A stretch of DNA of 64,000 bases from a virus, in the IMG/VR virus record IMGVR_UViG_3300023184_000037, positions 1-64,000 of that record; one strand, written 5' to 3'. The position numbers were made by a program, and so were the translations under genes. The notes below the pieces were generated by a model, which saw only the letters and a program-made list of their open reading frames with translations, was not told where the DNA came from and ran no database searches. Below are positions 7,918-21,505 of the stretch, one piece after another. Within the stretch, counting starts at the first letter, position 1. Each line of letters starts with the position of its first letter.

Positions 7918-8614
7918 TATAGGACAAAGGGTAGAAGCAGCAAAATCTGATACTCGACCATCCAATACAGATACCTCAACCGTACCAACCGAAATGAACC
8001 CTCAACCAGGGGATTCAACGACAGTACCTATAGATACATCAGGGTTAGATAGTGCCGGCGGTCAAGTACAACAACAATCACAGCAGGGTAATAATGCCAC
8101 ATCCGATAGTGCCAGAAAGACACAAGCTGGGGAGGCATCGGGTATACAATATCCAAAAGAGAGTGTTAATGCATCTGATCAAGCCCCGACAGCACCTTCA
8201 GAAAAGGAACTAGCCCAAACACCTCAACCAAAATCAAAAGGTTTTATGGAATCTTTAATCGATAGCCAAATGAGCAGTATGTTATCTGATAATAGTGGAG
8301 GGGACCATCCAGCACCAGATAGTGATTATGGACATGACAACGGGGACCCTAATGCAAATGTCCATAAACCACCAGTAGCCGAACCTATAAGAAGGGATAA
8401 AATGGACCCTTATAGTAACTCTAATAATAAGGTACCCGAACCTAAGAGATTTCCTATGGACTCTTTTGATAAAGAAAATACAAGGGAACCTTATAAGGCA
8501 CCTGATCAAAACTTAGGACCAGCCTATAAACCAAAAACTGTTAACCAACCTAAGGTAACTAGCCCTAATGTAAAGTTCAACACTCCCAAATTCAACTCTC
8601 CCCGATTCAATTAA
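7892..8614 (+). CDS. low-complexity, probably disordered P/S/Q/D-rich protein
   Basis: 240 aa ORF; C-terminal tail VKFNTPKFNSPRFN. Confidence 0.6.
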   Translation: MKVGLPQLSIGQRVEAAKSDTRPSNTDTSTVPTEMNPQPGDSTTVPIDTSGLDSAGGQVQQQSQQGNNATSDSARKTQAGEASGIQYPKESVNASDQAPTAPSEKELAQTPQPKSKGFMESLIDSQMSSMLSDNSGGDHPAPDSDYGHDNGDPNANVHKPPVAEPIRRDKMDPYSNSNNKVPEPKRFPMDSFDKENTREPYKAPDQNLGPAYKPKTVNQPKVTSPNVKFNTPKFNSPRFN

Positions 8615-8619
8615 CCGGT

Positions 8620-8917
8620 ACAATTGCTCCCGGATCAATGCCCGGCAAGTTGTCCCGGATCAATGTCCCGGATCAATGTACCAGGCAATGTCCAGATCAA
8701 TGCCCGGGATCAATATATTCAATGTATTTCAATGCCCGGCTCAATGTATATCAATGCATTTCAATGAAAATCAATGAATTTCAACACGTTTCAATAATTG
8801 CAATATACCTATAGGCTCAATATTGTTGTATAGGCAATATATTGTTGTACCTGTAGTGTGCCAATCAACAGTTGACACAGGCAATGCAGGTCAATGCAGG
8901 TCAATGCCTGCACAATA
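8620..8917 (+). repeat. array of ~22 (T)CAAT(G) units, partly in exact 10-bp phase
   Basis: CCCGGATCAATG-type units at 8628-8714; TCAA every 10 nt from 8741 to 8791; (G/T)CAATGC x3 at 10-nt spacing at 8881-8907. Confidence 0.85.
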
Positions 8918-10034
8918 TCTACAGTAATATAACATAGGGCACCTGTAGACCCTATAGGACCCTGCAAGCCCTGCACTACCAGTGAGCCCTACAGTCTCAG
9001 CAGTGCCCAGTGACCCTAGGGATCTGCAGCACCAGGAGCCCCCAGGGCGCAATTGCCCGGAAAATACTGGGCCGGGTCTACGATTTTTCAAAGGGCTCTA
9101 GGGGAACAGACCATGACTTCCTAACTAATATTGACCTATAAGAAAATGTGTTTCAAATAAGTGCACTAATTATCTCGGTCCGGGAATATGAGCCTCCGAG
9201 CATTGAGCCCTCCAATGGCTCTCCGATGGTCCTCAAATGGTGCCCAATGGTCCTATCCCGCTCCTCGAAGCGCTCAATGTTGCCCCTACCCAAAAAATTA
9301 CCCGGTTCCGGAGTGGCCAAAAAATACCAATCAGGACCGACAGAACAATAACCGTTACTAGAAACCCAAGGGGACTATAATTAATCAATAAGAGGGTACT
9401 CAATTCCCTATGGTTGGCTCAGATCCACCTGAGGGTACAGTGAAATACTTACAGAACCATGAAACAAGATGGTCCTACGACGGTATAAGAGACGTTCGGG
9501 TCTCAAAGGTGAAAGAGGGGGTGGCTCACCAATCTCTCACCTCTCTGATAGACTCGGAGCCTTAAGGCTCCTAAAAATTTCCAGTAGAAAAAAATAAATT
9601 GACCTCTATCCCATAGTCCCAAAGGGGGCGGGGTGGGGGCGTGCTGTAGGGTTCTACGGGTCTCTGTATATTATAGTATACAGAATGTTGAATTGGTATT
9701 GATATTGTACATTATAGTATACAGAATCATATAGAACCGTTATTAATAGAAGGGGACACACCCACTCTGATACCTTATATAGAGCGGTCAGTACTATGTG
9801 ACGTGTATAGGATGGACTGGTATTGGGAGTGCCTGATAGGCCTCTATAGGGCCGCCCAATGCGGGCTCAATGCACCTCAACTAACCTCAACGGGTCAATC
9901 ATTCTGGTGGATTTTTTTCATTTTTTCGTGATTGAAACCCAAATTTTCCCGCGCCAATAGGAGGGTGCACTTGGGTAGCGGATTGCAGAATAAAAAATTT
10001 TCACTTAACCCAAAGAAACTTCAAGTCTACCCTG

Positions 10035-10061
10035 AAACAAACCCAAAGTTCTCAATATAAA
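10035..10061 (+). promoter_or_regulatory. AAAC-N17-TATAAA promoter
   Basis: Upstream of the Cys-rich protein/clpC pair. Confidence 0.65.
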
Positions 10062-10078
10062 TCTAAAATAAATATACT

Positions 10079-10288
10079 ATGTGGAAAACTAAAGAAACTG
10101 AAGTCAAAGGCCGTAAGGTCGTATCGATGATTTGCCAAAACTCCGAATTGGAAAAGAGTAAATGGGCAGAATACGGGCCTGAAGAGGGACCATGTGAGAA
10201 CTGGACTGTTGTAGGAGCCGAGGCTACCGCATCACTTTGTCCTGAATGTGTTCAACGTTCCGTTAATATTCGTATTCCCAATCAGTAA
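10079..10288 (+). CDS. small Cys-rich, putative zinc-binding protein
   Basis: 69 aa with four Cys (ICQ, PCE, LCPEC). Confidence 0.65.
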   Translation: MWKTKETEVKGRKVVSMICQNSELEKSKWAEYGPEEGPCENWTVVGAEATASLCPECVQRSVNIRIPNQ

Positions 10289-10339
10289 CATGGATCCGCG
10301 CATATTATAATATTACCATAATAAATTAATCTACACAAT

Positions 10340-12310
10340 ATGACCAAGAAGACAAATACTCCTTTTATTGACCAATTCGGGGAGGACTTAACTAAACTAG
10401 CAATGGATGGGAAACTTGACCCTATCATCGGAAGAGAAAAGGAAGTATATAGAATATGCCAAATCCTTTCTCGTAGAAAGAAAAACAACCCAATTATTTT
10501 AGGGGATCCTGGTGTCGGTAAAACTGCCCTGGTTGAAGCAATTGCACAACGAATTGTCGAAAAGAAAGTTGCAATGACTCTTCTTAATAAACGTATAATC
10601 GCCCTGAATATTGCAAATGTGGTAGCAGGTACAAAATACCGTGGAGAATTCGAAGAGCGAATGAAAAACATTGTTGATGAACTTAAAGAAAACCCAGACG
10701 TTATTGTGTTTATTGATGAGATTCACACGATTGTAGGTGCTGGTGGTGTAAGTGGTTCATTAGACGCAAGTAATATCTTAAAGCCGGCATTGGCAAGAGG
10801 ACAAGTACAATGTATTGGTGCCACAACAATCGATGAGTATCGTGAAAATATTGAAACAGATGGGGCTCTTACCCGAAGATTCCAAGAAATCTTTATAGAC
10901 CCACCATCACTTGATGATGCAATTGAAATCTTAGATAGAATCAAACCGAACTACGAAGACTTCCATTCAGTATCATATACACCTGAGGCTATTAAAGCCT
11001 GTGTAATGTTATCTGACCGATATATTACTCAACGAGAATTACCGGACAAAGCAATCGATATTATGGACGAGGCTGGGGCAAAAGTTCACCTAAAAGAGGT
11101 TAAAATTCCGGAGATTATTAAAAAACTTGAAATCGAAGCCGATAGTTTAAAATCTCAAAAATTGAAAGCTGCTGACGCTACTGATTATGAAAAAGCCGGT
11201 AAATTTAGAGACCTTGAAATAGCTAAAAGAGAAGATATAACAAAAAGAACCAAACAATGGGAGGAGACGCTTAGACTAAATAAGAAAGCAGTAACTTATG
11301 AAGATATTGCTGAAGTAATTTCGGAATCTACTGGAATTCCTGTAACAAGAATGACCGATGACGAGAGCAGAATTGTTATTGATATGGAAAATGAATTAAA
11401 ATCTATGATTATAGGACAAGATACTGCGGTTGAAGGTCTATGTAGAGTTATTAAAAGAAGCCGAACTGGAGTAAGTTCATCTAAAAAACCTATTGGTTCA
11501 TTTATGTTTATCGGACCTACTGGAGTTGGTAAAACTGAAACTGTTAAAGCCCTTTCTGAATATTACTTTGGAAGCGAGGATTCTCTAATTAGAATCGACA
11601 TGTCAGAATACCAAGAAAAGTTTAATGTAAGTAGACTTATTGGTTCTCCTCCGGGATACGAAGGACATGAGGATGGTGGACAGTTAACTGAACAAGTTAG
11701 ACGTAAACCATATTCTGTAGTTCTATTTGATGAGGTTGAAAAAGCCCACCCAGATATTTTCAATATATTGTTACAAGTTTTAGATGAGGGACGTTTAACT
11801 GATACTCTTGGTAGAACTGTTGACTTTACAAATACTATCATTATTATGACTAGTAATGTTGGAGCAAAACGAGTTGCAGAATTCGGAGCTGGAATTGGAT
11901 TCTCAAGTTCAAGTTCTACTGCTACCCATAAAATGCAAATGGAAACAGTTATCCGAAAAGAACTTAAAAACAAATTCGCACCGGAATTCTTAAATAGACT
12001 TGACGAAATTGTATTGTTTGACGGACTAAAACAAGAAGATGTTGCTAAAATCGCCGAAATCGAAATCGAAAAGGTAATTGAGAGAATGGCCGAGCAGGAT
12101 TATGTTATTAAAGTTGCAAAAACTGCGATAGTATTTTTAGCAGAGCGTGGATATGATGCCCAATATGGAGCTAGACCTCTTAAAAGAGCAATTCAAACAT
12201 ACGTTGAAGACTTATTAGCAGATTGCATATTATCTAAAGAAGTCGTTAAAGGGAGTAAAACATACACAATATCCCATAAAAAAGGAGATGAGAAACTTTC
12301 TGTTAAATAA
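10340..12310 (+). CDS. clpC: ATP-dependent Clp protease ATP-binding subunit, ClpC type, lacking the N-terminal Clp-repeat domain
   Basis: Two AAA+ modules (GDPGVGKT/FIDEIH and GPTGVGKT/LFDEVEKAH), pore loops KYRG and PGYEG, short UVR-type M-domain (DYEKAGKFRD), ClpP-docking IGF loop. Confidence 0.92.
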   Translation: MTKKTNTPFIDQFGEDLTKLAMDGKLDPIIGREKEVYRICQILSRRKKNNPIILGDPGVGKTALVEAIAQRIVEKKVAMTLLNKRIIALNIANVVAGTKYRGEFEERMKNIVDELKENPDVIVFIDEIHTIVGAGGVSGSLDASNILKPALARGQVQCIGATTIDEYRENIETDGALTRRFQEIFIDPPSLDDAIEILDRIKPNYEDFHSVSYTPEAIKACVMLSDRYITQRELPDKAIDIMDEAGAKVHLKEVKIPEIIKKLEIEADSLKSQKLKAADATDYEKAGKFRDLEIAKREDITKRTKQWEETLRLNKKAVTYEDIAEVISESTGIPVTRMTDDESRIVIDMENELKSMIIGQDTAVEGLCRVIKRSRTGVSSSKKPIGSFMFIGPTGVGKTETVKALSEYYFGSEDSLIRIDMSEYQEKFNVSRLIGSPPGYEGHEDGGQLTEQVRRKPYSVVLFDEVEKAHPDIFNILLQVLDEGRLTDTLGRTVDFTNTIIIMTSNVGAKRVAEFGAGIGFSSSSSTATHKMQMETVIRKELKNKFAPEFLNRLDEIVLFDGLKQEDVAKIAEIEIEKVIERMAEQDYVIKVAKTAIVFLAERGYDAQYGARPLKRAIQTYVEDLLADCILSKEVVKGSKTYTISHKKGDEKLSVK

Positions 12311-12319
12311 TCATATAAT
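12293..12319 (+). promoter_or_regulatory. AAAC-N17-TATAAT promoter
   Basis: Exact spacing; upstream of the thymidylate-synthase-family gene. Confidence 0.65.
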
Positions 12320-12336
12320 ATAATAAAATTATAAAT

Positions 12337-13191
12337 ATGAAAACATTCTCACACCAATTTAAACACATTATTTCGGACATAAAAATTCACGGAGAGGTCT
12401 CTAAACCAAGAGACCTTGAAGTTACTGAATTACTATATGCAGGCTACCAAATTAATCCTAAAGAACCATTTGCTAATTTTACTAGTAGAGAGTTCAATTG
12501 GAAGTATTTTGCTGGTGAATTAGCATGGTACCTAAATAAAGATACTAATATTGATTACATTAATAAGTTTTCTGGATTCTGGAAAAACATAACAAATCCT
12601 GGAACAAACGAAATTAATTCAAATTACGGTTCTCTTCTTTTTGGAGAACAATTACAATGGGTTGTTAACTCTCTTAAAGCAGACAAGAACACTCGACAAG
12701 CAATTGCTTTCTTAAATCAGCCAAAATACCAGTTTGAAGGTAATAAAGATTTTGTATGTACTATGTACTTGAACTTTTCAATCAGGCACAACAAGCTAGA
12801 TATGAAAGTTCAAATGCGTTCTAATGATATATTCTATGGACTTACATTTGATGCTCCATTCTTTGCATTCGTTCACCAACATGTTTATCTTTGGTTAAAA
12901 TCAACCTATCCTGAATTAGAACTTGGAGTATACCATCATTATGCGGATAACATTCATTTTTACGAAAGACATTTTGAACTAGCCGAAAAAATTGTCAATG
13001 AGCCTCTTCATGAAAAACAATACTCAATGGAATTAATCGAACCACTTTTCAATATTGAAAATGGAATGATGCATTTGACTTCTCACGGAATTTCGATGAT
13101 AAATAATATAAATGATACGATAGATAACGTCCTGACTAAAGAAGCATATATTAGCATATTATCAGAATATCTTAATATAAGAGAGCTATGA
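12337..13191 (+). CDS. thymidylate synthase family protein, most like dCMP hydroxymethylase (T4 gp42 type)
   Basis: INSNYG, DFVCT (catalytic Cys), MRSND...GLTFD with Asp where ThyA has Asn, HFYERHF. Confidence 0.8.
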   Translation: MKTFSHQFKHIISDIKIHGEVSKPRDLEVTELLYAGYQINPKEPFANFTSREFNWKYFAGELAWYLNKDTNIDYINKFSGFWKNITNPGTNEINSNYGSLLFGEQLQWVVNSLKADKNTRQAIAFLNQPKYQFEGNKDFVCTMYLNFSIRHNKLDMKVQMRSNDIFYGLTFDAPFFAFVHQHVYLWLKSTYPELELGVYHHYADNIHFYERHFELAEKIVNEPLHEKQYSMELIEPLFNIENGMMHLTSHGISMINNINDTIDNVLTKEAYISILSEYLNIREL

Positions 13192-13493
13192 TTGAGTGCA
13201 TGAAAACCAAGCTAAACATACCGGAATTCTATATAAATCAAGGTGGATTTGATTCAATTACTAGTGACTGCGAATTTCACGACAGAATTGTAGATTTTAT
13301 TGAAACAAATATTGACAAAGAAAATGCAGAAACTTTGCTATGCTATTTTGTACATGAAACCGGAGATATACAATCTGCCGAACTTCCAAAGGGTTCGTAC
13401 AAGCAGTCAATATTAAAAAGCCTAGAATTTTACGTTAAAAACGAAAAGTACGAAAAGTGCAAGCAAATTAAAAACCTATTAAAGAAACTATAA
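13188..13493 (+). CDS. small protein with C-terminal UVR-like motif
   Basis: Ends SLEFYVKNEKYEKCKQIKNLLKKL; stop overlaps the clpP start. Confidence 0.7.
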   Translation: MIECMKTKLNIPEFYINQGGFDSITSDCEFHDRIVDFIETNIDKENAETLLCYFVHETGDIQSAELPKGSYKQSILKSLEFYVKNEKYEKCKQIKNLLKKL

Positions 13494-14179
13494 TGAATCA
13501 CGGGAAAGAATTCGAAAGATACGCAATGTTAGACAAGGGTGTAAGTTCAATGAACATGCACTACTATAAAAAACAAATCGAAAATTCAATGACTCCATAT
13601 ATCTTGGAAGAGAGAGAAATGAGAGCAACTCAATTGGACATTTTTTCGAGATTAATGATGGATAGATTATTATGGGTTGCAGGACCTGTTAATGACAATA
13701 TGTCAACTATAGTCCAAGCTCAATTAATGTTTTTAGATAGCACCGATGACCGAGATATAACAATGCACATTGATAGTCCTGGAGGTTCAGTAAAATCTGG
13801 ACTTTCTATGGTTGACGTTATGGAATGGATTAAATCCGATATTAGAACCGTAAACACTGGTATGGCGGCTTCGATGGGTTCAGTACTATTAGGAGCTGGA
13901 ACTAAAGGTAAAAGAAGTTCACTAAGACATTCAACAACAATGTTGCACCAATCTTCAGGAGGATTCAGTGGAAATATACAAGACGCTGAAATCGACTGGG
14001 CAGAATGGCAAAAAGTTAACAAAGAACTATTTAATTTATTAGGAGCATATTGCGATAAAAAACCAGAACAGGTTATGAAAGACGCGACGAGAGATTTATG
14101 GTTAAACGCAGAAGAGGCGCTTAGTTATGGTATCATCGACGAGATTATTAATCCTGGTAAATTAAAATCTAAAAAATAA
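13493..14179 (+). CDS. clpP: ATP-dependent Clp protease proteolytic subunit
   Basis: DSPGGSV, AASMGS (Ser), MLHQ (His), RDLW (Asp); N-terminus resembles Bacteroidota ClpP. Confidence 0.95.
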   Translation: MNHGKEFERYAMLDKGVSSMNMHYYKKQIENSMTPYILEEREMRATQLDIFSRLMMDRLLWVAGPVNDNMSTIVQAQLMFLDSTDDRDITMHIDSPGGSVKSGLSMVDVMEWIKSDIRTVNTGMAASMGSVLLGAGTKGKRSSLRHSTTMLHQSSGGFSGNIQDAEIDWAEWQKVNKELFNLLGAYCDKKPEQVMKDATRDLWLNAEEALSYGIIDEIINPGKLKSKK

Positions 14180-14377
14180 ATGAGAGTCCATATTTATGTA
14201 CACGCCGAAGAACTTGAATACTTAAACAAAATAATCAAAGGAAAGGTAGAAGCAGGAGAATACAAAGTTACGATATCTCCAATATACTTTAAAGATTCAT
14301 ACTTAATTGATATGCCCTATTCCGATTTTGTAAGATTAAACGATCAAAAAACATTTACTTCATTAATTTCATTATGA
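14180..14377 (+). CDS. hypothetical protein
   Basis: 65 aa, abuts clpP. Confidence 0.65.
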   Translation: MRVHIYVHAEELEYLNKIIKGKVEAGEYKVTISPIYFKDSYLIDMPYSDFVRLNDQKTFTSLISL

Positions 14378-14685
14378 CGAACAGAGAAAAACAAAGAGAA
14401 TTATTTGTTGAATTAATTAACCATCAACTTAAGGACCACGGCGTAACATACGAAGATGTTAAAACAAATCCATCGTGGTACGTGGAATATAAGACTACTC
14501 CAGAGAAGGAAGAGGCATTTATTAAATATGCTGTCGAAAGAATCAGAGAAGTCCTAAAAATTTCAAAAGCTGCCGCTGAAAAGGAGGCAAGTTGGTTTAT
14601 TCTACAATGGGGATTAACTACTATTAACCCTAGAAAAGCTCCAAATAGGGTACAAAGCGAAGTTACTAAAAGAACTAAGTCCTAG
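14374..14685 (+). CDS. hypothetical protein
   Basis: 103 aa, ATGA overlap with the previous gene. Confidence 0.7.
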   Translation: MTNREKQRELFVELINHQLKDHGVTYEDVKTNPSWYVEYKTTPEKEEAFIKYAVERIREVLKISKAAAEKEASWFILQWGLTTINPRKAPNRVQSEVTKRTKS

Positions 14686-14747
14686 ATTATAGTAATATAA
14701 AGCAAAAATGCCTATATAAATTTAATATGTAAAAGATACATATAGGT

Positions 14748-15449
14748 ATGAATGTCTTTGAACCGAATTGGCTAATGGAGCCACCTCATGATTATGAGCT
14801 AAAATATTACAAACTACTTGCAGCAATCGATAAAATTAAAAAAATGATTTCTGCTAATAGTTTGTATTCTGCTATTTTAGAGGTAGAAAATGAGCTTGAA
14901 AAACTCTACAATATCAAGTACGGAAAAGACGAAATTGAAAGTAAAACAAGAATAATTACCGGTATCGATGTTGATACATTGTCCCTAAAATATGAATACC
15001 CGGAAGAGAATGACGGAACTAGTTCTATCTACGATATTTGTGATATCGCAATTGATAAATTAGAAGACTTATACCGAATTATTAGAGATAAATGGAGATT
15101 GGTAGAATCTCAATGCATTATTACCGAAATCCCAGAGAAAAGACATCTTAATACTAAAGGGTACATTTTTTATATTGACCCTGCTAATCAAAAAATCCAC
15201 GTTTATTTTTATGTGGAGCCTTCATCATTTAAAATAAATTGGAGTGAATTTAATTTAAAAAAAGTCGAAGAGTTAGAAAATTCAGTTAAAGAAATTTCTA
15301 CATTTATCGACAAGGCTAAATTAGAAAGTACTTCTTACCGATTTTTTAGATTCGATACTAAATTTAAGACATCAACCCCACCCTACAATGACTGTATGCT
15401 TCCAATTATGAAAAGCATGTTGTTTAACCGGATCAAGCATGGTATCTAA
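14748..15449 (+). CDS. hypothetical protein
   Basis: 233 aa ORF; N-terminal WLMEPPHDYELKYYKLLA. Confidence 0.75.
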   Translation: MNVFEPNWLMEPPHDYELKYYKLLAAIDKIKKMISANSLYSAILEVENELEKLYNIKYGKDEIESKTRIITGIDVDTLSLKYEYPEENDGTSSIYDICDIAIDKLEDLYRIIRDKWRLVESQCIITEIPEKRHLNTKGYIFYIDPANQKIHVYFYVEPSSFKINWSEFNLKKVEELENSVKEISTFIDKAKLESTSYRFFRFDTKFKTSTPPYNDCMLPIMKSMLFNRIKHGI

Positions 15450-15456
15450 AATATAT

Positions 15457-15483
15457 AAACTAATCCTATTTTTTTAATATAAT
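15457..15483 (+). promoter_or_regulatory. AAAC-N17-TATAAT promoter
   Basis: Exact spacing; 4 nt before the ATG of the glycosyltransferase. Confidence 0.65.
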
Positions 15484-15487
15484 TAGT

Positions 15488-17338
15488 ATGAAAATTAGCA
15501 TAATTACCAGAGCGACACGTCTGCATAATTTACAGACTGTTAAAGAATCCGTGTTTAATAATGTTCCAGGCGGTTGCGAAATAATGTGGCACATTGTATT
15601 TGATACTGTCAATCTTAAAGATATCGATGCCGAATTACTATTTAATTTAAAAGATGACTCAACTGCATTTCACTTTGAAAAGGGAGAACCTGGAGGATTA
15701 CTATATCCCCAATGTTCTGAATTAATCTCAAAATTAGGAGAGAGTTGGGTTTACTTTTTAGATGATGATAACATTATGCATAAAGGATTTTATGAATATG
15801 TTTTAAAAACTTCAATATTAAATCCAGACAAAAAAGTCCATGTAGTTTCACAAAATGTTGCAGGAAAAGATTTCACTGGTTTAACTTATAGAAATGCTGC
15901 TCCTGAATTTATAAGGGTAGGAGGAGTAGACTTAGCCCAATTTATTATTAGTACCGAAGTATATAATAAATATGGATATAAATTCTTGCCGGATTATTGC
16001 GCAGATGGAATACTTATTAGTGCAATACATAACGAGCACCCAGAATGGTTTACATTTACCGGAAAAATATTTGCGCACTACAATTACTTACAAAAAAAAT
16101 CTACAGCAAAAGTTCCTAAAGTATTGTATATCGGTACCGACAAGCCTGAATTAAAATCACTTAAAATACTTAACTACGAGGACGATAGTCTTAATGTTAA
16201 ATATTTACAAAATGATTCTAATATTAAATCAATACTTGCCGAATTTCGACCTGATGTTATCATAACAAGAGGAGAATCTTGGCAAAACTTTCCAGAACTT
16301 GCAAGTACTTCACTTCAATTCCGTAGAAAATGGCTAAATATTAAAGAAGATGTTTCAGCAGAAGATGTTGGTCAAACAGCGTATCAATGCGCAATGGAAA
16401 GTTTATTGAACCCTGATGGATTAGAAGATAGTTCAATGATTTCATATTTCACTCCAATATATAATACTGGTGAAAAGCTTTTCAATACCTATCAATCACT
16501 GCTAGATCAGACTTACGACAATTGGGAATGGGTATTAGTAAATGATTCTACCGATGGCGGCAAAACATTAAAAATTGCAGAATCTATTGCGGCAAAAGAC
16601 CCTAGAGTACGTCTATACGATTTTAGAGAAAAAAGCGGTGGAAACATCGGTGAAGTTAAATGGAGATGTTGCACAATGGCAAAAGGATTTATTCTTGCTG
16701 AATTAGACCATGACGATTTATTGGTTCCATGGTGTACTGAAGACCTTTACAAAGCGGCTAAAAAACACCCAGAAGCCGGATTCTTTTTTAATGACACTGT
16801 TGAAGTTGACGAAAACTGGAATTCATTAACCTATGGAGAAGGATTTGCGCTAGGATACGGTAAATACCGAAAAGAAGAGTATGCTGGAAAAACAATGGAC
16901 GTTGCAACTCAACATAATATTAATCCTAAAACAATTAGACATATTGTTGGTGTACCGAATCACGTAAGAGCATGGAGACGTTGTACTTATTTTGAAATTG
17001 GAGGACATAATAGAAATCTTGTAATAGCCGACGATTATGAATTGGTTGTAAGAACTTTTTTGAAAACGATAACCTGTAAAATACCAAAACTGGGATATAT
17101 TCAATTCCTATACAACAATGCAATTGGACAGAATACCCACGATATGGCAAGAGCAGATATTCAAAGAAGGGTAAGAACAATAGGTTACTACTACAACGAA
17201 CAAATTAAAAAACGTTTTGAAGAGTTAGGATTAAAAGATTGGGCTTATGATGAAAATCCATGGGCACCTTTAAATACGGCCTCTAGATATGGAGAAGAGG
17301 AAATGGCAGCAAACATAATATATAACGAAAATGAATAA
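15488..17338 (+). CDS. glycosyltransferase with two GT-A (GT2-like) domains
   Basis: N-terminal ISIITR...YFLDDDN...ADG; C-terminal TPIYN...VLVNDSTD...ELDHDD...ADDYEL. Confidence 0.85.
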   Translation: MKISIITRATRLHNLQTVKESVFNNVPGGCEIMWHIVFDTVNLKDIDAELLFNLKDDSTAFHFEKGEPGGLLYPQCSELISKLGESWVYFLDDDNIMHKGFYEYVLKTSILNPDKKVHVVSQNVAGKDFTGLTYRNAAPEFIRVGGVDLAQFIISTEVYNKYGYKFLPDYCADGILISAIHNEHPEWFTFTGKIFAHYNYLQKKSTAKVPKVLYIGTDKPELKSLKILNYEDDSLNVKYLQNDSNIKSILAEFRPDVIITRGESWQNFPELASTSLQFRRKWLNIKEDVSAEDVGQTAYQCAMESLLNPDGLEDSSMISYFTPIYNTGEKLFNTYQSLLDQTYDNWEWVLVNDSTDGGKTLKIAESIAAKDPRVRLYDFREKSGGNIGEVKWRCCTMAKGFILAELDHDDLLVPWCTEDLYKAAKKHPEAGFFFNDTVEVDENWNSLTYGEGFALGYGKYRKEEYAGKTMDVATQHNINPKTIRHIVGVPNHVRAWRRCTYFEIGGHNRNLVIADDYELVVRTFLKTITCKIPKLGYIQFLYNNAIGQNTHDMARADIQRRVRTIGYYYNEQIKKRFEELGLKDWAYDENPWAPLNTASRYGEEEMAANIIYNENE

Positions 17339-17549
17339 CACTTACGTAAAAATCTGGGTACATAATAGAGAATCTGATTTAATGATGGATTTTTTATTAG
17401 AAAGAGTCGATACCCCACCAAACTACATTATTGACCATCATGAAGTGCCAAAATCTATCACCGGTGGATGGATTGAAATGAGTATCTCTTATGATAGGTA
17501 TCTTATGCTTCGACAATCGCATGACCATGTGGACACTACTCACATGTAA
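17331..17549 (+). CDS. hypothetical protein
   Basis: 72 aa, overlaps the previous stop. Confidence 0.65.
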   Translation: MNNTYVKIWVHNRESDLMMDFLLERVDTPPNYIIDHHEVPKSITGGWIEMSISYDRYLMLRQSHDHVDTTHM

Positions 17550-17574
17550 ACTTTTTTATTTTTTTGTGTATAAT
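17548..17574 (+). promoter_or_regulatory. AAAC-N17-TATAAT promoter
   Basis: Exact spacing. Confidence 0.65.
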
Positions 17575-17580
17575 TAGTAT

Positions 17581-17829
17581 ATGGCAAAAAGTATAAAAGA
17601 ACCTAAAATATATGTAGTTAAACCGAAAGTCGGTGAGAATTACTATTTTAAATTTGCAGGGAGTATCATGTATGGCGAATTAGTTTCCTTAAATGAAGCG
17701 TTAACTAAATTGCATGGAATTCCACATTATTGGATGAATGAAAAATCCGACAAGAGTGCAAAAAAATGCATATATCCGATATCAATTTATAAGATTTTTA
17801 AAGATTTAAACGACTCAAAGAATGTATAA
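17581..17829 (+). CDS. hypothetical protein
   Basis: 82 aa ORF after the promoter. Confidence 0.7.
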   Translation: MAKSIKEPKIYVVKPKVGENYYFKFAGSIMYGELVSLNEALTKLHGIPHYWMNEKSDKSAKKCIYPISIYKIFKDLNDSKNV

Positions 17830-18553
17830 CACTACCGAATTAAAGTCAATGTTATTTATTGACATTGAAACAACTTCAGAATATTCAACGTATGAAGAGT
17901 TTTGTGATAAAAGACCGGGAGCAGTAAAGCACTGGTCAAAAAAGGCAGAACAACACAGAAATACCGAATCACATTTAGAAAAACTTACCGATGCCGAAAT
18001 GTATACTCACATGGCAGCTCTTAGTCCAGAATTTAGCAAGGTTATTGTAATTTCTCTTGGGCAAATTAAATTCCAAGATAACTTTACAACATCAAAAATT
18101 CGTTCATTCTATACCGGAACCGAGAGAGAAATTCTTACAGAGTTTATGGGTACTGCTCAAGCTGTTTTTAATCAAAGCCCTGGCATCCAATTTGCTGGAC
18201 ATAATATTAAGAACTTTGATTTCCCATACTTGATAAAAAGAGCTATTGTAAATGGGGTTTCGATACCTCATCAATTCCATTTACAAAAGAAAAAACCATG
18301 GGAAAACTGTCTTGTAGATACCTATGAAATTTGGAAATTTGCAGGTTGGAATAGTGCATCTCTAGACTTGATTTGCGATACTCTTAATATCCCATCTCCT
18401 AAAACTATAATGGAGGCGAGCAGTACTACTGAAGAGTATTGGAATGGTAATATTGAGAAGATAAAAACATATTGTGAAGGAGACGTTAAAGCAACTATGA
18501 ACGTAATGCTTAAAATAAGTGGAATGGATATGGTTGATGAAGTACCATTTTAA
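17822..18553 (+). CDS. 3'-5' exonuclease, DEDD/PolB-exonuclease-like
   Basis: ExoI FIDIET, ExoII GHNIKNFDFPY, ExoIII YCEGDV. Confidence 0.88.
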   Translation: MYNTTELKSMLFIDIETTSEYSTYEEFCDKRPGAVKHWSKKAEQHRNTESHLEKLTDAEMYTHMAALSPEFSKVIVISLGQIKFQDNFTTSKIRSFYTGTEREILTEFMGTAQAVFNQSPGIQFAGHNIKNFDFPYLIKRAIVNGVSIPHQFHLQKKKPWENCLVDTYEIWKFAGWNSASLDLICDTLNIPSPKTIMEASSTTEEYWNGNIEKIKTYCEGDVKATMNVMLKISGMDMVDEVPF

Positions 18554-18564
18554 ATTTAAAGTAT

Positions 18565-18684
18565 ATGATATCAGGTACAAGTTACACAGAAAATGAATTA
18601 GGAGACCCTCCTAAAAAAGAGGTTAAAAACTCATTTTTTGAACTATTAGAAAAATTGTTTAAAAAATTGTTAATAACTTTTTAG
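18565..18684 (+). CDS. possible 39 aa protein (MISGTSYTENELGD...)
   Basis: Read manually; its end overlaps a promoter box. Confidence 0.35.
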   Translation: MISGTSYTENELGDPPKKEVKNSFFELLEKLFKKLLITF

Positions 18685-18739
18685 CAAAAAGTTTTACCGT
18701 GTCAGGAATTTATATTATATTTACATATCAAATTAAAAC
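18665..18739 (+). promoter_or_regulatory. conserved putative early promoter, class B
   Basis: AATTGTTAATAACTTTTT-N31-ATTATATTTACATATCAAATTAAAAC. Confidence 0.75.
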
Positions 18740-18748
18740 CTTATAATC

Positions 18749-19039
18749 ATGGACGAAAACTTTGACCTTTTTGAAGACCAAGAAAACGAAATCGACACTA
18801 TTAAAAAAGAAGCCGAAATGAATAACATAATGTATGATTTGAAAATCAAACTTGCAAATGAGAATTATGATTCGATAATTTCTAAAGGAGTTGATTTTAA
18901 ATTAATGGAAAAACAAAACATCGAGATTGAACCTGTTGTTAAAATTCTCGGAGATATGTTAGAGCTTTTTGAAGAGCTTGAAGAGTACGAAAAGTGCGCA
19001 AAAATAAATAAAATACTTAAGAAAGCGCCGGTCCTATAA
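18749..19039 (+). CDS. small acidic protein with C-terminal UVR-like motif
   Basis: Ends MLELFEELEEYEKCAKINKILKK. Confidence 0.75.
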   Translation: MDENFDLFEDQENEIDTIKKEAEMNNIMYDLKIKLANENYDSIISKGVDFKLMEKQNIEIEPVVKILGDMLELFEELEEYEKCAKINKILKKAPVL

Positions 19040-19054
19040 GACCGGTTTTTCTTT
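19027..19054 (+). terminator. rho-independent terminator
   Basis: CCGGTC-ctataa-GACCGG followed by TTTTTCTTT. Confidence 0.65.
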
Positions 19055-19085
19055 AATATATAACATACTAATAAAGTATATCAAT

Positions 19086-19298
19086 ATGGACGAGGAAATA
19101 TTAAAGAAGATTGCGGACAGTCTAGAAAGAATCGCAATTTGCATGGAAAATAAACAATTAAGAGAAATTGCAACCTATAGAAAAGGTCAGGCTGCCCTAG
19201 TTGCTGAGAAAAAAGCAGATAATAAAAAGCAGGCAAAATCTCAACCAATTATTCCTATAGTGAAACAAACAGTTAGAGTTAGAAATTCCGGTAAATAA
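19086..19298 (+). CDS. hypothetical coiled-coil/basic protein
   Basis: 70 aa; LKKIADSLERIA heptad pattern. Confidence 0.65.
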   Translation: MDEEILKKIADSLERIAICMENKQLREIATYRKGQAALVAEKKADNKKQAKSQPIIPIVKQTVRVRNSGK

Positions 19299-19304
19299 AC
19301 TCTA

Positions 19305-20126
19305 ATGAATTACTACGAAACTCTTAACGTTTCAAAAGATGCTACTCCAGAAGAAATCAAAAAATCTTATAGGAAGCTTGTAAAAGAGCATCATCCCGAC
19401 AAAACAGGGGGAGACGATTCAAAATTTAAACAAATATCCGAAGCATACGAAACTCTTTCTGACCCTGTCAAAAAAGAGCAATATGATAATAAGTCTAGAG
19501 GATATTCTCCATTTGGTGGCGGATTTCAAGACACCTCAAATCCTTTTGCACATGCTTTTCGAGGATTTGGTGGAGATTTTGCTGACATGTTTAATCAATC
19601 ATTTGGTGGAGAGGCAAGAGGACACGATGTTAGAATTTCGATGAATATTACCCTTGAAGAATCTTACGAAGGTGTCAGAAAATATATCGATGTCGGGACT
19701 GGTGGATTTAATATCAATATACCTCGAGGAATTTATAGTGGAACAAAACTTAAAGTTCCAGGTCGAGGAGCCCCACATCCTGTAAATTCATCTGCACCTC
19801 CTGGTGATATTATTCTGACTATCAATGTTTTACCAGACCCTGAACTTATTGTTAATGGTAGTGACATCTATGTTGAATTAACCCTAAGCTGGATTGACCT
19901 CTTACTTGGTGGAGAATTTGAAGTCCATACCAAACTAAATTCCCTAAAAATTAAAGTTCCTCAAGGTTCTCATGATTCAAAACTCTTGCGTGTTGTTGGA
20001 CAGGGAATGCCAATATATAACGCAGAAGGATTCGGAAATCTTATGGTAAAACTTAGAACACTTCCCGTAAATTTATCCGAATCTGAAATAGAATTACTCA
20101 AAAAAATAAAAAATCAAAATGAGTAG
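19305..20126 (+). CDS. dnaJ: DnaJ-class co-chaperone (class B/CbpA-like, no zinc finger)
   Basis: J domain with HPD, G/F-rich linker, two C-terminal beta domains. Confidence 0.92.
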   Translation: MNYYETLNVSKDATPEEIKKSYRKLVKEHHPDKTGGDDSKFKQISEAYETLSDPVKKEQYDNKSRGYSPFGGGFQDTSNPFAHAFRGFGGDFADMFNQSFGGEARGHDVRISMNITLEESYEGVRKYIDVGTGGFNINIPRGIYSGTKLKVPGRGAPHPVNSSAPPGDIILTINVLPDPELIVNGSDIYVELTLSWIDLLLGGEFEVHTKLNSLKIKVPQGSHDSKLLRVVGQGMPIYNAEGFGNLMVKLRTLPVNLSESEIELLKKIKNQNE

Positions 20127-20373
20127 CATTGAAGAAAGTCCGGAAGAATCTAGAAAATTTATAAAAAAACTACACGAAGCCTCCAAAGAAGACATGATGG
20201 ATGCGATGTACTCCTCTATTATTAATGGCAGAATGGGTGCCTTAAAGTATGATGGAAGTATTAAAGAGAAAATAGAAGGTGTCCAGACGGTTCTTAATTT
20301 TTTTAAAGAGAAAGAAGATTATGAAAAATGCAAAGAACTTAAGAAAATTATCGACGACCTGTCGGTAATATAA
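20119..20373 (+). CDS. small protein with C-terminal UVR-like motif
   Basis: Ends VLNFFKEKEDYEKCKELKKIIDDL; overlaps the dnaJ stop. Confidence 0.75.
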   Translation: MSSIEESPEESRKFIKKLHEASKEDMMDAMYSSIINGRMGALKYDGSIKEKIEGVQTVLNFFKEKEDYEKCKELKKIIDDLSVI

Positions 20374-20466
20374 TATAGTAACCTTTTTAACCCGGATACC
20401 TTTAATCCTACCGGTTAAAATATATATTATATGCGACTTATGTTGCTTTAAAAACATTGCAATGAG

Positions 20467-20724
20467 ATGGGAGATATTACAGGGGAGGAAAGAGATTCTC
20501 TGATGAGGTCCAGCTACTACATACTTACTAGAAATTTCACAAAAACCATCAATAGATTTGTTGTTTATAATGATGGTAGCCACACAATAGACATTCCGCA
20601 CGGAATCGGACAGCGAAGTAAATTCGTAGATGTCCTAATAGAATATTTTGTTGAGTTAGAGGAATATGAAAAATGTGAATCGCTCAAAAAATTAAAAGAA
20701 CTAGTCATGATGACTGGTGATTAA
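20467..20724 (+). CDS. small protein with C-terminal UVR-like motif
   Basis: Ends LIEYFVELEEYEKCESLKKLKEL. Confidence 0.75.
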   Translation: MGDITGEERDSLMRSSYYILTRNFTKTINRFVVYNDGSHTIDIPHGIGQRSKFVDVLIEYFVELEEYEKCESLKKLKELVMMTGD

Positions 20725-20740
20725 ATAAATACAAATTTGT

Positions 20741-21505
20741 ATGCAAAAAAGAACGGTGGAAAGTAAATCAAGATCGACTAAGGCAAAGCCAAAAACTACG
20801 TCTACAGCCGCTAAAAATCCAGTTGGACGTCCTAAAAAAACAGTAGTTAAAGAATTAGATTTAGTCGGAGTTCAATTAAAACCAGGACAATATGATTATT
20901 TTGAAAAAATCAAAAAGAATGAAATAACATTCTGTTCCGGTCCAGCAGGTACTTCAAAAACATTTACTGCATGTTACACTTCACTATGGTTATTAGCGAC
21001 TCAGGCAGTTTCAAAAATTATATTATGTAAACCAATTCAAGAATCCGGAGAGAAACTTGGATTCCTACCTGGAGATATTGCAGACAAGGTCGACCCGTAC
21101 ATGCAATCATATATTTCAAACTTTAAAAAAATAGTAGGTGATGAATTAACAGAAGGACTAATCGCTTCAGGAGCTATCGAATTTAAACCACTAGCGTTTA
21201 TGAGAGGTGATACGTTTGACGATTCGTTCATGATTCTAGATGAAGCCCAAAATGCTTCGTTTAAACAATTAATGTTATTTACGACCCGTATGGGTAAAAA
21301 TTCTAAAGTTCTGGTAACTGGAGACGTTAGTCAATATGATATACCAAAAGCCAGCGCTGGTCTTCCAGGATTCATGCAATTAATGAAGGGAATTAAAGGA
21401 ACTGGAGAACATGTTTTTGAAAATAAAGATATTGTAAGAGCTAAAATACTTCAAGATGTTGTAGACAGATATGACAAATGGAGAGTTGAAAATCCTGAAA
21501 AATAA
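20741..21505 (+). CDS. phoH: PhoH family ATPase
   Basis: GPAGTSKT, GEKLGFLPG, MRGDTF, ILDEAQN, TRMG, GDVSQYD. Confidence 0.93.
   Translation: MQKRTVESKSRSTKAKPKTTSTAAKNPVGRPKKTVVKELDLVGVQLKPGQYDYFEKIKKNEITFCSGPAGTSKTFTACYTSLWLLATQAVSKIILCKPIQESGEKLGFLPGDIADKVDPYMQSYISNFKKIVGDELTEGLIASGAIEFKPLAFMRGDTFDDSFMILDEAQNASFKQLMLFTTRMGKNSKVLVTGDVSQYDIPKASAGLPGFMQLMKGIKGTGEHVFENKDIVRAKILQDVVDRYDKWRVENPEK

What the first reader, a model, noticed from the sequence alone, without database searches (positions are those of the whole stretch)
10079..20724. Phage ClpCP without an N-domain plus four stand-alone UVR-motif proteins: candidate modular adaptor system for targeted proteolysis
Seen: ClpC (10340) begins directly at the AAA1 entry (TPFIDQFGEDLT), so it lacks the ~150 aa N-domain. 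It keeps the UVR-type M-domain (KAADATDYEKAGKFRD) and the IGF loop. ClpP is intact. Four small ORFs (13188, 18749, 20119, 20467) have dissimilar N-termini but end in the same helix-hairpin motif, L..(F/Y)...E.YEKC..(I/L)...(L/I). One is translationally coupled to clpP and one to dnaJ. Established: ClpC N-domains are the normal docking site for adaptors and substrates (MecA, pArg); UVR motifs form head-to-head coiled coils and occur in ClpC partners such as McsA and plastid ClpF. Inference: the phage replaces the N-domain with trans-acting 'UVR tag + variable substrate-binding head' modules that steer its own ClpCP, or the host's, to chosen proteins. The copy at 18749 has an early-type promoter, which would allow temporal programming.
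Basis: partly seen in the sequence, partly recalled or inferred. Interest (0 to 1): 0.9.

Follow-up and report, generated by a model that had tools for sequence, protein, structure and literature searches.

The report
Phage hairpin proteins beside headless ClpC
A large lake-water phage carries a ClpC unfolding motor that naturally lacks its regulatory head, a ClpP protease, a DnaJ co-chaperone and four small proteins from a very large, undescribed, virus-only family marked by a cysteine-bearing UVR-like hairpin. Gene order ties only one of the four to the protease, so the "private adaptor set" idea is attractive but mostly unsupported.

Summary
ClpC (10340-12310) starts at the position matching residue 155 of Bacillus and Staphylococcus ClpC and has no Clp_N. 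It keeps the UVR-type M-domain, the IGF loop and both AAA modules. ClpP is intact. Four small ORFs end in E-x-YEKC.

The tails are not Pfam UVR motifs. They are a twilight-zone, Cys-bearing relative of UVR that always aligns in the same register. Type 1 folds as one compact domain and type 3 as a three-helix bundle, so neither is a "head plus tag".

The family is very large: 476 clusters at 50% identity, with no Pfam or PHROG family of its own. In the 41 family-bearing viral records tested it is mostly uncoupled from clpC. Only 4 of the 41 carry a Clp ATPase, and four near-complete genomes carry none. Conversely, 47 records with an N-less ClpC from the sister clade lack the family, although 3 of 5 checked have a canonical tandem-UVR gene beside ClpC.

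Within this clade each paralogue keeps its own neighbour: type 1 clpP, type 3 dnaJ, type 4 phoH. Type 1 is therefore a testable candidate ClpCP regulator, and the function of the family as a whole is open. No binding is shown. The scan has noted the same family before on other genomes.

The parts
10079..10288 (+). 69-aa ORF with Cys at 19, 39, 54 and 57 (C-x-x-C at the end). It lies directly upstream of clpC. Function unknown.
   Evidence: ORF. Homologues with the same I-C-x-N-S and L-C-x-x-C-V-Q-R patterns occur in L002 (adjacent to clpC) and in L004, where two genes separate it from clpC. Only a sub-threshold zinc-ribbon Pfam hit. Not shown to belong to the system.
10340..12310 (+). ClpC-type class I Hsp100 unfoldase lacking the N-domain. 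It has two AAA modules, a short UVR-type M-domain (tip 'DYEKAG') and an IGF loop.
12337..13191 (+). Thymidylate-synthase-family enzyme. It is conserved between clpC and the type 1 gene.
   Evidence: Pfam Thymidylat_synt 5.6e-21 and phrog_160 4.9e-41. Synteny in 12 loci.
13188..13493 (+). Type 1 hairpin protein (101 aa). It overlaps the thyA stop and the clpP start.
   Evidence: AF2 model: pLDDT 85.6, pTM 0.78; strand 13-16, helix 27-41, strands 50-56 and 61-65, helices 68-84 and 88-100. The order thyA, type 1, clpP is kept in all 12 relatives with ClpC identity of 68% or more and in a type-1-like representative about 35% identical to type 1, in L178.
13493..14179 (+). ClpP peptidase with the Ser-His-Asp triad and an N-terminal extension of about 30 residues.
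18693..18747 (+). Two overlapping sigma-70-like promoter matches in the 195-nt gap before the type 2 gene.
   Evidence: (11/12 and 9/12 matches). The total number of such matches in the block is no more than chance (55 found against 51.5 expected).
18749..19039 (+). Type 2 hairpin protein (96 aa, pI 4.4). It looks monocistronic, and a terminator-like hairpin follows at 19027-19046.
   Evidence: Its orthologue lies beside Hsp20 in G002 and beside DnaK in G004.
19305..20126 (+). Class B J-domain protein: J domain plus DnaJ_C, with no zinc-finger domain detected.
20119..20373 (+). Type 3 hairpin protein (84 aa). Its start overlaps the end of dnaJ.
   Evidence: AF2 model: three helices at 8-35, 48-64 and 68-83; pLDDT 75. 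The dnaJ overlap is kept in G002-G004 and in the distant L192, where DnaJ is 35% identical. It is the most UVR-like type.
20467..20724 (+). Type 4 hairpin protein (85 aa), 16 nt upstream of phoH.
   Evidence: A type-4-like gene lies directly upstream of phoH in the distant L211, L235 and L288, where PhoH is 37% identical.
20741..21505 (+). PhoH-like ATPase.
   Evidence: Pfam PhoH 4.5e-61.

Best explanation
Shown:
- The four small genes are paralogues of a very large, virus-only, undescribed family of small acidic proteins.
- The conserved core of the family is a C-terminal helix-turn-helix whose tip carries a nearly invariant E-x-Y-E-x-C.
- This is a cysteine-bearing, twilight-zone cousin of the UVR hairpin.
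- Type 1 models as a compact single domain and type 3 as a three-helix bundle.
- The genes sit in one block of a T4-like, probably Bacteroidota-infecting lake phage, together with an N-domain-less ClpC, ClpP, a class B DnaJ and PhoH.

Inferred:
- The invariant hairpin tip is a docking surface for another protein. Each orthologous lineage has specialised on a different partner.
- Only type 1, which is kept between clpC/thyA and clpP, is a credible regulator of the phage ClpCP.
- Type 1 would most plausibly work by presenting a copy of the ClpC M-domain tip (aromatic-E-K-small residue). That could compete with the M-domain to M-domain contacts that keep a ClpC without its N-domain inactive.

The family as a whole is not a dedicated adaptor set built to replace the missing N-domain.
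For: Family and fold:
- 556 close homologues, each type conserved over its full length.
- 476 clusters at 50% identity, all small, with the motif at the C-terminus.
- Across 145 representatives Cys is 100% conserved and E, Y, E are 97-99% conserved, while the hydrophobic core positions are only 50-79% conserved. Median pI is 4.85.
- Confident AF2 models.
- The only structural neighbours are viral clusters, at TM 0.70-0.75.

Likeness to UVR.

ClpC context:
- The ClpC tip residue F436 aligns with the Tyr of 'DYEKAG', and nearly all N-less phage ClpCs have Tyr there.
- In S. aureus, delta-N ClpC is proteolytically inactive unless the M-M contact is broken by F436A (PMC12583610).

Gene order:
- thyA, type 1, clpP is kept in 12 loci and in L178.
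- dnaJ with type 3, and type 4 with phoH, are kept in distant phages.

Uncoupling from clpC.

A second lineage pairs an N-less ClpC with a canonical tandem-UVR gene.
Against: - No interaction has been shown for any member.
- Conserved adjacency could simply reflect general synteny of related phages and local tandem duplication. Overlapping start and stop codons are common throughout this compact genome.
- The resemblance to UVR is below significance for three of the four types, and for the family profile (5% probability).
- A comparison with the ClpC family profile itself gave nothing significant.
- An invariant Cys is unusual for a purely docking surface and may point to metal binding or redox chemistry instead.
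- Most family members sit in contexts with no chaperone or protease.
Confidence: 0.45

Rival explanations
1. All four proteins are trans-acting adaptors made of a UVR tag plus a variable substrate-binding head. They replace the missing N-domain and steer the phage's (or the host's) ClpCP to chosen substrates, with temporal programming.
For: - N-less ClpC together with ClpP and four UVR-like paralogues within 10 kb.
- The tip motif matches the ClpC M-domain tip.
- delta-N ClpC needs release of M-M contacts to become active.
- A sister clade pairs N-less ClpC with a tandem-UVR gene.
- Type 2 has its own promoter-like site and terminator.
Against: - The family is common in records and near-complete phage genomes without any Clp ATPase and in contexts without Clp nearby.
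- 47 records with an N-less ClpC lack the family, one of them a complete 321-kb genome.
- Three of the four paralogues track dnaJ, phoH, or DnaK/Hsp20 rather than clpC.
- Type 1 and type 3 model as single domains, not head plus tag.
- PF02151 does not match the tails.
Confidence: 0.1
2. Host-directed early proteins. The hairpin tip mimics a UVR or coiled-coil tip in order to bind host proteins that use such contacts (host ClpC or ClpB M-domains, UvrB/UvrC, McsA-like proteins), or other host targets. This would serve take-over or counter-defence, and the position near phage chaperone genes would be an accident of duplication and synteny.
For: - The family is virus-only, acidic and small, with multiple copies per genome in some phages.
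- It occurs in many phages that have no clpC, dnaJ or phoH.
- Neighbours are diverse: a sigma-like gene, terminase, amidase.
- A sigma-70-like promoter site lies in front of type 2.
Against: - The pairs dnaJ/type 3, type 4/phoH and type 1/clpP are kept across deep divergence, which argues for links to the phage's own genes.
- No host target has been identified, and the host is known only by inference.
Confidence: 0.22
3. Cysteine-dependent chemistry. The invariant E-x-x-E-x-C at the hairpin tip is a metal-binding or redox site, possibly completed across a dimer. The proteins would then be small metallo- or redox cofactors or sensors rather than docking modules.
For: Cys is 100% conserved in 145 representatives that differ by more than 50% from each other, and no Ala, Ser or Gly replaces it. 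The flanking Glu residues are 98-99% conserved. Most members have only this one Cys.
Against: One Cys and two Glu per chain is a poor metal site on its own. No similarity to a known metal or redox fold was found. The same position in UVR is a small packing residue.
Confidence: 0.1

Closest known systems
UVR motif (Pfam PF02151): UvrB C-terminus, UvrC, ClpC M-domain, McsA
   Same: Both are helix-turn-helix hairpins of about 35 residues with an aromatic-Glu-x-small signature at the turn. All profile comparisons align in the same register. A minority of family representatives and of related Atlas clusters match PF02151.
   Different: The first Ala is replaced by an invariant Cys, the second Ala is variable, and the Arg-Asp pair is mostly missing. 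The four proteins do not match the Pfam model. In type 1 the hairpin is packed into a larger compact domain.
ClpC-ClpP with adaptors MecA or McsA/McsB (Bacillus, Staphylococcus), and engineered delta-N ClpC (Jenne et al. 2025, PMC12583610)
   Same: The phage ClpC aligns end to end with Sa and Bs ClpC from residue 155 onward. It keeps the M-domain tip aromatic and the IGF loop, and it is encoded with ClpP. It is a natural counterpart of the delta-N construct.
   Different: There is no N-domain, so neither MecA-type nor phospho-arginine docking is possible. No MecA, ClpS or McsA/B homologue was detected. Whether any partner protein activates it is unknown.
[quoted passage not shown]
   Same: It is a precedent for a small phage protein that binds ClpC and redirects ClpCP activity.
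   Different: Gp53 is a 25-kDa protein that acts on the host's full-length ClpC. No sequence relation to Gp53 was tested or seen here, and here the phage brings its own N-less ClpC.
Tandem-UVR small proteins beside N-less ClpC in other lake jumbo phages
   Same: A small virus-encoded UVR-type protein lies within about 1.3 kb of an N-less ClpC, in 3 of 5 records.
   Different: Those proteins carry two canonical PF02151 motifs, are transcribed divergently from clpC, and do not match the Cys-bearing family.
CbpA-CbpM (a class B J-protein with its co-transcribed small modulator, E. coli). This comparison is recalled from general knowledge.
   Same: A class B DnaJ is followed by an overlapping gene of about 85-100 codons (type 3). 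The pair is kept in distant phages.
   Different: Type 3 gave no Pfam match at the gathering threshold, only three unrelated hits at E 0.03-0.08, none to CbpM's family. No binding is shown.
'Moraphages', large aquatic T4-like phages of Bacteroidota (PMC12619734)
   Same: The gene content is shared: a ClpA/ClpC-type ATPase and PhoH as core genes, DnaJ commonly, DnaK and Hsp20 in some, and a freshwater origin.
   Different: Membership was not tested phylogenetically here. The paper mentions neither the missing N-domain nor the hairpin family.

Membership tests
UVR motif (PF02151) | Match to the Pfam model at or above the gathering score (21.5 bits) | tested here: not met
   None of the four proteins hits at E <= 1. 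In the whole-contig search only the ClpC M-domain matches, at 26.1 bits. Among 145 family representatives, 5 match at E <= 1, best 3.4e-4.
UVR motif (PF02151) | Profile-profile similarity to a diverse UVR profile (UvrB, UvrC, ClpC and other UVR-bearing genes from 5 bacterial genomes, plus phage ClpCs) | tested here: inconclusive
   The register is the same in all six comparisons. Type 3: 49% probability, P = 1.8e-4 over 35 columns. Type 3 with distant relatives: 19%. The other three types 0.6-1.8%, and the whole-family profile 5.4%.
UVR motif (PF02151) | Signature (F/Y)-E-x-A-A-x-L-R-D | tested here: not met
   Y-E-x-C is invariant, but the next position is variable. The R-D positions are mostly K followed by a variable residue.
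UVR motif (PF02151) | Antiparallel two-helix hairpin | tested here: met
   AF2 gives helices 68-84 and 88-100 in type 1 and helices 48-64 and 68-83 in type 3. These are predictions only.
ClpC (class I Hsp100 that works with ClpP) | Two AAA+ modules, a short coiled-coil M-domain with a UVR motif, and a ClpP-binding IGF loop | tested here: met
   Pfam AAA, AAA_lid_9, AAA_2, ClpB_D2-small and UVR. The best solved relatives are Sa and Bs ClpC at about 1e-218. 'GIGF' is present in the sequence.
ClpC (class I Hsp100 that works with ClpP) | N-terminal Clp_N repeat domain | tested here: not met
   No Clp_N in the protein or anywhere in the contig. The alignment starts at residue 155 of ClpC. About 65 of the 80 best viral ClpC relatives are likewise 635-705 aa long, two of them cut at a locus end.
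ClpP | CLP_protease fold with the Ser-His-Asp triad | tested here: met
Known Clp adaptors (ClpS, MecA, McsA/McsB) | Sequence homology of any of the four small proteins, or of any gene in the contig, to these adaptors | tested here: not met
   The four proteins give no Pfam hit to these families at E <= 1. PF02617 (ClpS) is absent from the contig. Fold searches list none of them, which is inconclusive for fold.
Clp adaptor in the functional sense | Binds the unfoldase and changes its activity or substrate choice | not testable with these tools
   This needs biochemistry.
Class B J-domain protein | J domain and DnaJ C-terminal domains without the Cys-rich zinc-finger domain | tested here: met
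   Pfam gives DnaJ at 1e-23 and DnaJ_C at 2.2e-29, and nothing else.
Moraphage lineage (PMC12619734) | Phylogenetic placement by TerL, MCP and core orthologous groups | not tested
   Only shared gene content and habitat were noted.

The most novel reading that the evidence does not exclude
The Cys-bearing hairpin is a mimic of the Hsp100 M-domain tip. By capping the Tyr-bearing tip of the phage's N-less ClpC it would dissolve the M-M locked resting state and switch the protease on. The divergent bodies of the paralogues would bring different clients or machines (ClpP, DnaJ/DnaK-bound proteins, PhoH) to that unfoldase. That would be a phage-encoded, modular, N-domain-independent way to control a Clp protease, with relatives in smaller phages aimed at host Hsp100 proteins.
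Probability: 0.12. Interest if true: 0.85.

Novelty: new variant of a known kind. Interest (0 to 1): 0.5.

Why it matters
- ClpC is normally held inactive by its N-domain and M-domain and is activated through the N-domain. Natural N-less ClpCs are common in large phages, which raises the question of how such a motor is controlled.
- Work on delta-N ClpC (PMC12583610) predicts that it needs something to break the M-domain contacts. A virus-only family that copies the M-domain tip motif is an obvious candidate to test.
- The family itself has hundreds of clusters, an invariant cysteine, and no Pfam or PHROG family of its own. It is one of the larger unannotated small-protein families in aquatic phages, so finding its partner would annotate thousands of genes.
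- The negative result also matters. Co-occurrence does not support a dedicated four-part adaptor system.

Tried and rejected
- Complex prediction of DnaJ (alignment A6) with type 3 (A5): no answer, score 0.01 against a mark of 0.32, controls not run. This counts neither for nor against binding.
- A profile of type 1 against PDB sequences gave no hit at E <= 10.
- Foldseek against the PDB gave nothing at E <= 0.001; the best was PipX at E 0.7.
- VIA-align against 48,161 chains gave only generic three-helix and TPR-like matches at Z <= 6.5, within the stated background.
- hhalign of each type, and of the whole family, against the viral ClpC family profile: for two of the four types the best local alignment fell on the ClpC UVR motif, but E was 0.2-0.55 throughout, which is not significant.
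- A home-made ClpC M-domain HMM gave only marginal hits to type 3 relatives.
- Ten hand-picked 'RD'-containing family members did not hit PF02151.
- The search for related loci with the 145-sequence alignment failed because no stretch was conserved enough. A first DNA pattern was too degenerate.
- No tRNA, tmRNA or Rfam family was found in 8000-10400.
- Bacterial ClpC relatives are all about 45-55% identical across many phyla, so they give no clue to the host.
- No ClpC-tip to type-1-tip covariation was visible in 12 pairs.
- Contigs from RNA libraries of three studies cover relatives of clpP, dnaJ, type 2 and type 4 at 85-98% likeness. Contigs cannot show transcription, and these libraries may contain DNA.
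It was redone from the files.

Full report
**What is in the window.** The window is the first 64 kb of a 145-kb IMG/VR viral contig with 34% G+C. CheckV rates it about 46% complete. The source run is a lake-water metagenome.

Other notes of this scan describe T4-type replication and virion genes on the same contig. I did not check those notes.

The gene content resembles the recently described 'moraphages'. It includes a ClpA/ClpC-type ATPase, PhoH and DnaJ, with DnaK and Hsp20 in relatives. Moraphages are large aquatic T4-like phages predicted to infect Flavobacteriia (PMC12619734). I did not test membership phylogenetically.

- ClpC (10340-12310, 656 aa) has both AAA modules, the AAA lid, the D2-small domain and a weak UVR match at residues 268-297, but no Clp_N.
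- The PHROG ClpC-type profile aligns only from its position 168.
- The best solved relatives, S. aureus and B. subtilis ClpC (E about 1e-218), align from their residue 155-157.
- Clp_N and ClpS are absent from the whole contig.
- 'GIGF' is present in the sequence.
- ClpP (13493-14179) has the Ser, His and Asp of the triad aligned with a solved ClpP, plus an N-terminal extension of about 30 residues.
- The four small ORFs (13188, 18749, 20119, 20467) share invariant E, Y, E, K and C. They are the only ORFs of this kind in the 145 kb.
- The overlaps thyA/13188, 13188/clpP and dnaJ/20119 are real.

**The N-less ClpC is not special to this phage.** About 65 of the 80 best ClpC relatives in IMG/VR are 635-705 aa long and begin at the same point, two of them cut at a locus end. 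About 15 are 818-897 aa long and have an N-terminal region.

**The small proteins form a real and very large family.**

- A word-indexed search with the four-sequence alignment found 556 proteins. In the 120 listed, each of the four types is conserved over its whole length, and 119 of the 120 keep the Y-E-[KRS]-C signature.
- An exhaustive profile search of 1.84 billion cluster representatives found 476 clusters at E <= 0.001. All are small, with the motif at the C-terminus.
- Over 145 representatives the Cys is 100% conserved and the Glu, Tyr and Glu are 97-99% conserved. The hydrophobic positions of the two helices are only 50-79% conserved. Median pI is 4.85.
- The most conserved residues therefore sit at the hairpin turn. 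I read this as a functional site rather than a mere scaffold, which is an inference.
- Of the 145 representatives, two match a PHROG of unknown function and no PHROG covers the family. Pfam has no family for it.
- The string EEYEKC does not occur in the searched literature.

**Is it a UVR motif?** Not by the Pfam test.

- None of the four proteins hits PF02151 at E <= 1. The same model finds the ClpC M-domain.
- UVR is nevertheless the only named family that keeps appearing. It hits 5 of 145 representatives, best 3.4e-4.
- The structural neighbours of type 1 and the feature neighbours of types 3 and 4 in the ESM Atlas are virus-only clusters. In one or two of these clusters, 13-17% of members carry PF02151.
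- I built a UVR profile from 14 UVR motifs of five bacterial genomes plus 121 short ClpC M-domain segments from viral and bacterial loci. Against it, all six query profiles align in the same register, with Y-E-K-C on (F/Y)-E-K-A.
- Type 3 reaches 49% probability (P = 1.8e-4, 35 columns). The other types and the whole family stay below 6%.
- My verdict is a Cys-bearing, twilight-zone cousin of UVR. This is plausible but not proven.

**Fold.**

- With a 21-sequence alignment, type 1 gives a confident model: pLDDT 85.6, pTM 0.78. It has a short strand, a helix at 27-41, a beta-hairpin at 50-65, and the two tail helices at 68-84 and 88-100.
- Type 3 gives three helices at pLDDT 75.
- The tail is therefore part of a compact three-helix core, not a free tag on an independent head.
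- Profile comparisons among the four types align only the last 29-57 columns, so the N-terminal parts have diverged strongly.
- PDB searches give only generic helical matches.

**Gene order.**

- In all 12 loci whose ClpC is at least 68% identical, the order is clpC, thyA-like, type 1, clpP, with two or three small ORFs and a 230-aa ORF downstream.
- A type-1-like family representative about 35% identical to type 1 is again preceded by an N-less ClpC and a thyA-like gene and followed by a 228-aa, ClpP-sized gene that has no Pfam hit on record.
- Whole-record searches show 3-4 family members in each of four related contigs, and one in a fifth, 41%-complete contig.
- These members lie in a second conserved array: exonuclease, (Hsp20 in one phage, DnaK in another), type 2, a 60-70-aa ORF, dnaJ, type 3 overlapping dnaJ, type 4, phoH, rnhB.
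- The dnaJ/type 3 overlap recurs in a distant contig whose DnaJ is 35% identical and whose neighbours are rearranged.
- A type-4-like gene lies directly before phoH (37% identical) in contigs that also carry GroEL and GroES.
- So each orthologous type has its own faithful neighbour, and only type 1 is tied to the protease.

Of these, 119 encode family members.
- About 100 of them have no ClpC, ClpP, DnaJ, DnaK, Hsp20 or PhoH homologue in the fetched flanks.
- The commonest context (about 45-56 loci) is: family gene, a 64-aa ORF, a 261-aa phrog_5889 protein, a small membrane protein, and a sigma-70-region-2-like protein. Others lie next to a terminase or an amidase.
- Of 41 whole records that carry the family, only 4 have a Clp/Hsp100 AAA_2 domain.
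- Of the five records that are at least 97% complete, four (59, 65, 94 and 120 kb) have none. The one that does is a 508-kb record flagged as a provirus.
- In the other direction, none of 42 fragmentary records with an N-less ClpC at about 52% identity has a family member. Neither do five further records, including a complete 321-kb genome with terminal repeats.
- The family and the N-less ClpC are therefore separable in both directions. This argues against an obligate adaptor-motor pair.

**What keeps the idea alive for type 1.**

- The UVR aromatic that aligns with the family's invariant Tyr is F436 of ClpC, the tip residue of the M-domain. In the phage ClpC it is Tyr ('DYEKAG'). Nearly all N-less phage ClpCs have Tyr there, whereas about two-thirds of the full-length ones have Phe and the rest Tyr.
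- Jenne et al. 2025 show that S. aureus delta-N ClpC has raised ATPase activity but no proteolytic activity unless the M-M contact is also abolished by F436A. The double mutant degrades ssrA-tagged GFP as well as MecA-activated wild type does (PMC12583610).
- A natural N-less ClpC that keeps its tip aromatic may therefore still need something to release M-M contacts. A small protein displaying a copy of that tip is a reasonable candidate. This is an inference.
- In the sister clade, 3 of 5 records have a 127-149-codon ORF with two canonical UVR motifs, transcribed divergently about 1-1.3 kb from the N-less clpC. That is a second, independent pairing of a headless ClpC with a UVR-type small protein. 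It is also optional.

**What was not obtained.** It returned no verdict. No binding evidence exists for any member. RNA-library contigs that cover relatives of several of these genes cannot show transcription.

**Promoter claim.** The top sigma-70-like match of the 12-kb block lies in the gap before type 2, but its -10 box ends 2 nt before the ATG. A weaker match 27 nt upstream fits better. A terminator-like hairpin follows the gene. The total count of promoter-like sites is at chance level.

**Verdict.**

- The label 'UVR-motif proteins' is acceptable only as 'UVR-like'.
- The 'modular adaptor system for a headless ClpCP' is not supported as a system. The family is a general, very large phage family. 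Three of the four copies follow other genes. The motor occurs widely without the family.
- Type 1 remains a concrete, testable candidate regulator of the phage ClpCP.
- Earlier follow-ups of this scan on other genomes (e1-5635144, e1-5366184, e1-5619485) reached much the same reading. I reached mine from my own tests before I saw them.

Noticed in passing
window 8615-10078: A stretch of about 1.46 kb upstream of the Cys-ORF and clpC has no credible ORF. The 2-kb composition window that holds it (8001-10000) has 44.5% G+C against about 34% elsewhere. No tRNA, tmRNA or Rfam family was found. It is about 69% identical to the matching stretch of the sister contig L002, whose ClpC protein is 95% identical.
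   Followed up: partly
window 10079-10288: A 69-aa ORF with four Cys residues (the last two as C-x-x-C) is conserved in L002 and L004. In L004 it is separated from clpC by a LOG-like gene and an RNaseH_like (PF04308) gene. It may be a small zinc-ribbon protein.
   Followed up: partly
window 13493-13590 (ClpP N-terminus): The phage ClpP has an N-terminal extension of about 30 residues that solved ClpPs lack. It is conserved across the clade ('EFERYA...'). It could be a propeptide or a gating or partner-binding element.
   Followed up: no
loci L002-L081, ClpC M-domain tip: Nearly all N-less phage ClpCs carry Tyr at the position of ClpC F436 (mostly Q-N-Y-E-Q-A). About two-thirds of the full-length ClpCs in the same hit list carry Phe there, and the rest carry Tyr.
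   Followed up: partly
records G007 (120930-121127), G008 (157957-158160), G009 (51245-51445): In the sister clade of N-less ClpC phages, a 127-149-codon ORF with two canonical PF02151 motifs lies about 1-1.3 kb from clpC and is transcribed divergently. It is absent from G006 and G010.
   Followed up: partly
L097 (G004) and L096 (G002): In related phages the type 2 orthologue lies directly beside a DnaK/Hsp70 gene (G004) or a small heat-shock protein gene (G002). The window's own 145-kb contig has no HSP70.
   Followed up: partly
L211, L235, L288: A different phage lineage carries GroEL and GroES homologues within about 6 kb of a family gene that sits directly upstream of phoH.
   Followed up: no
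L252, L256, L262, L286 and about 45-56 further loci: The commonest context of the family in IMG/VR is: a longer (140-150 aa) family member, a 64-aa ORF, a 261-aa phrog_5889 protein with an HD-like 'HDLGK' motif, a 90-aa membrane protein, and a 236-aa protein with a weak Sigma70_r2 match.
   Followed up: partly
window 12337-13191: The thymidylate-synthase-family gene between clpC and type 1 matches Pfam Thymidylat_synt only moderately (5.6e-21). Another note on this genome proposes DNA hypermodification, so this gene may be a pyrimidine hydroxymethylase rather than ThyA.
   Followed up: no
window 14180-15449: Three ORFs downstream of clpP (65, 103 and 233 aa) are kept in the same order across the clade and have no Pfam or PHROG match. 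They are as tightly linked to clpP as type 1 is.
   Followed up: partly
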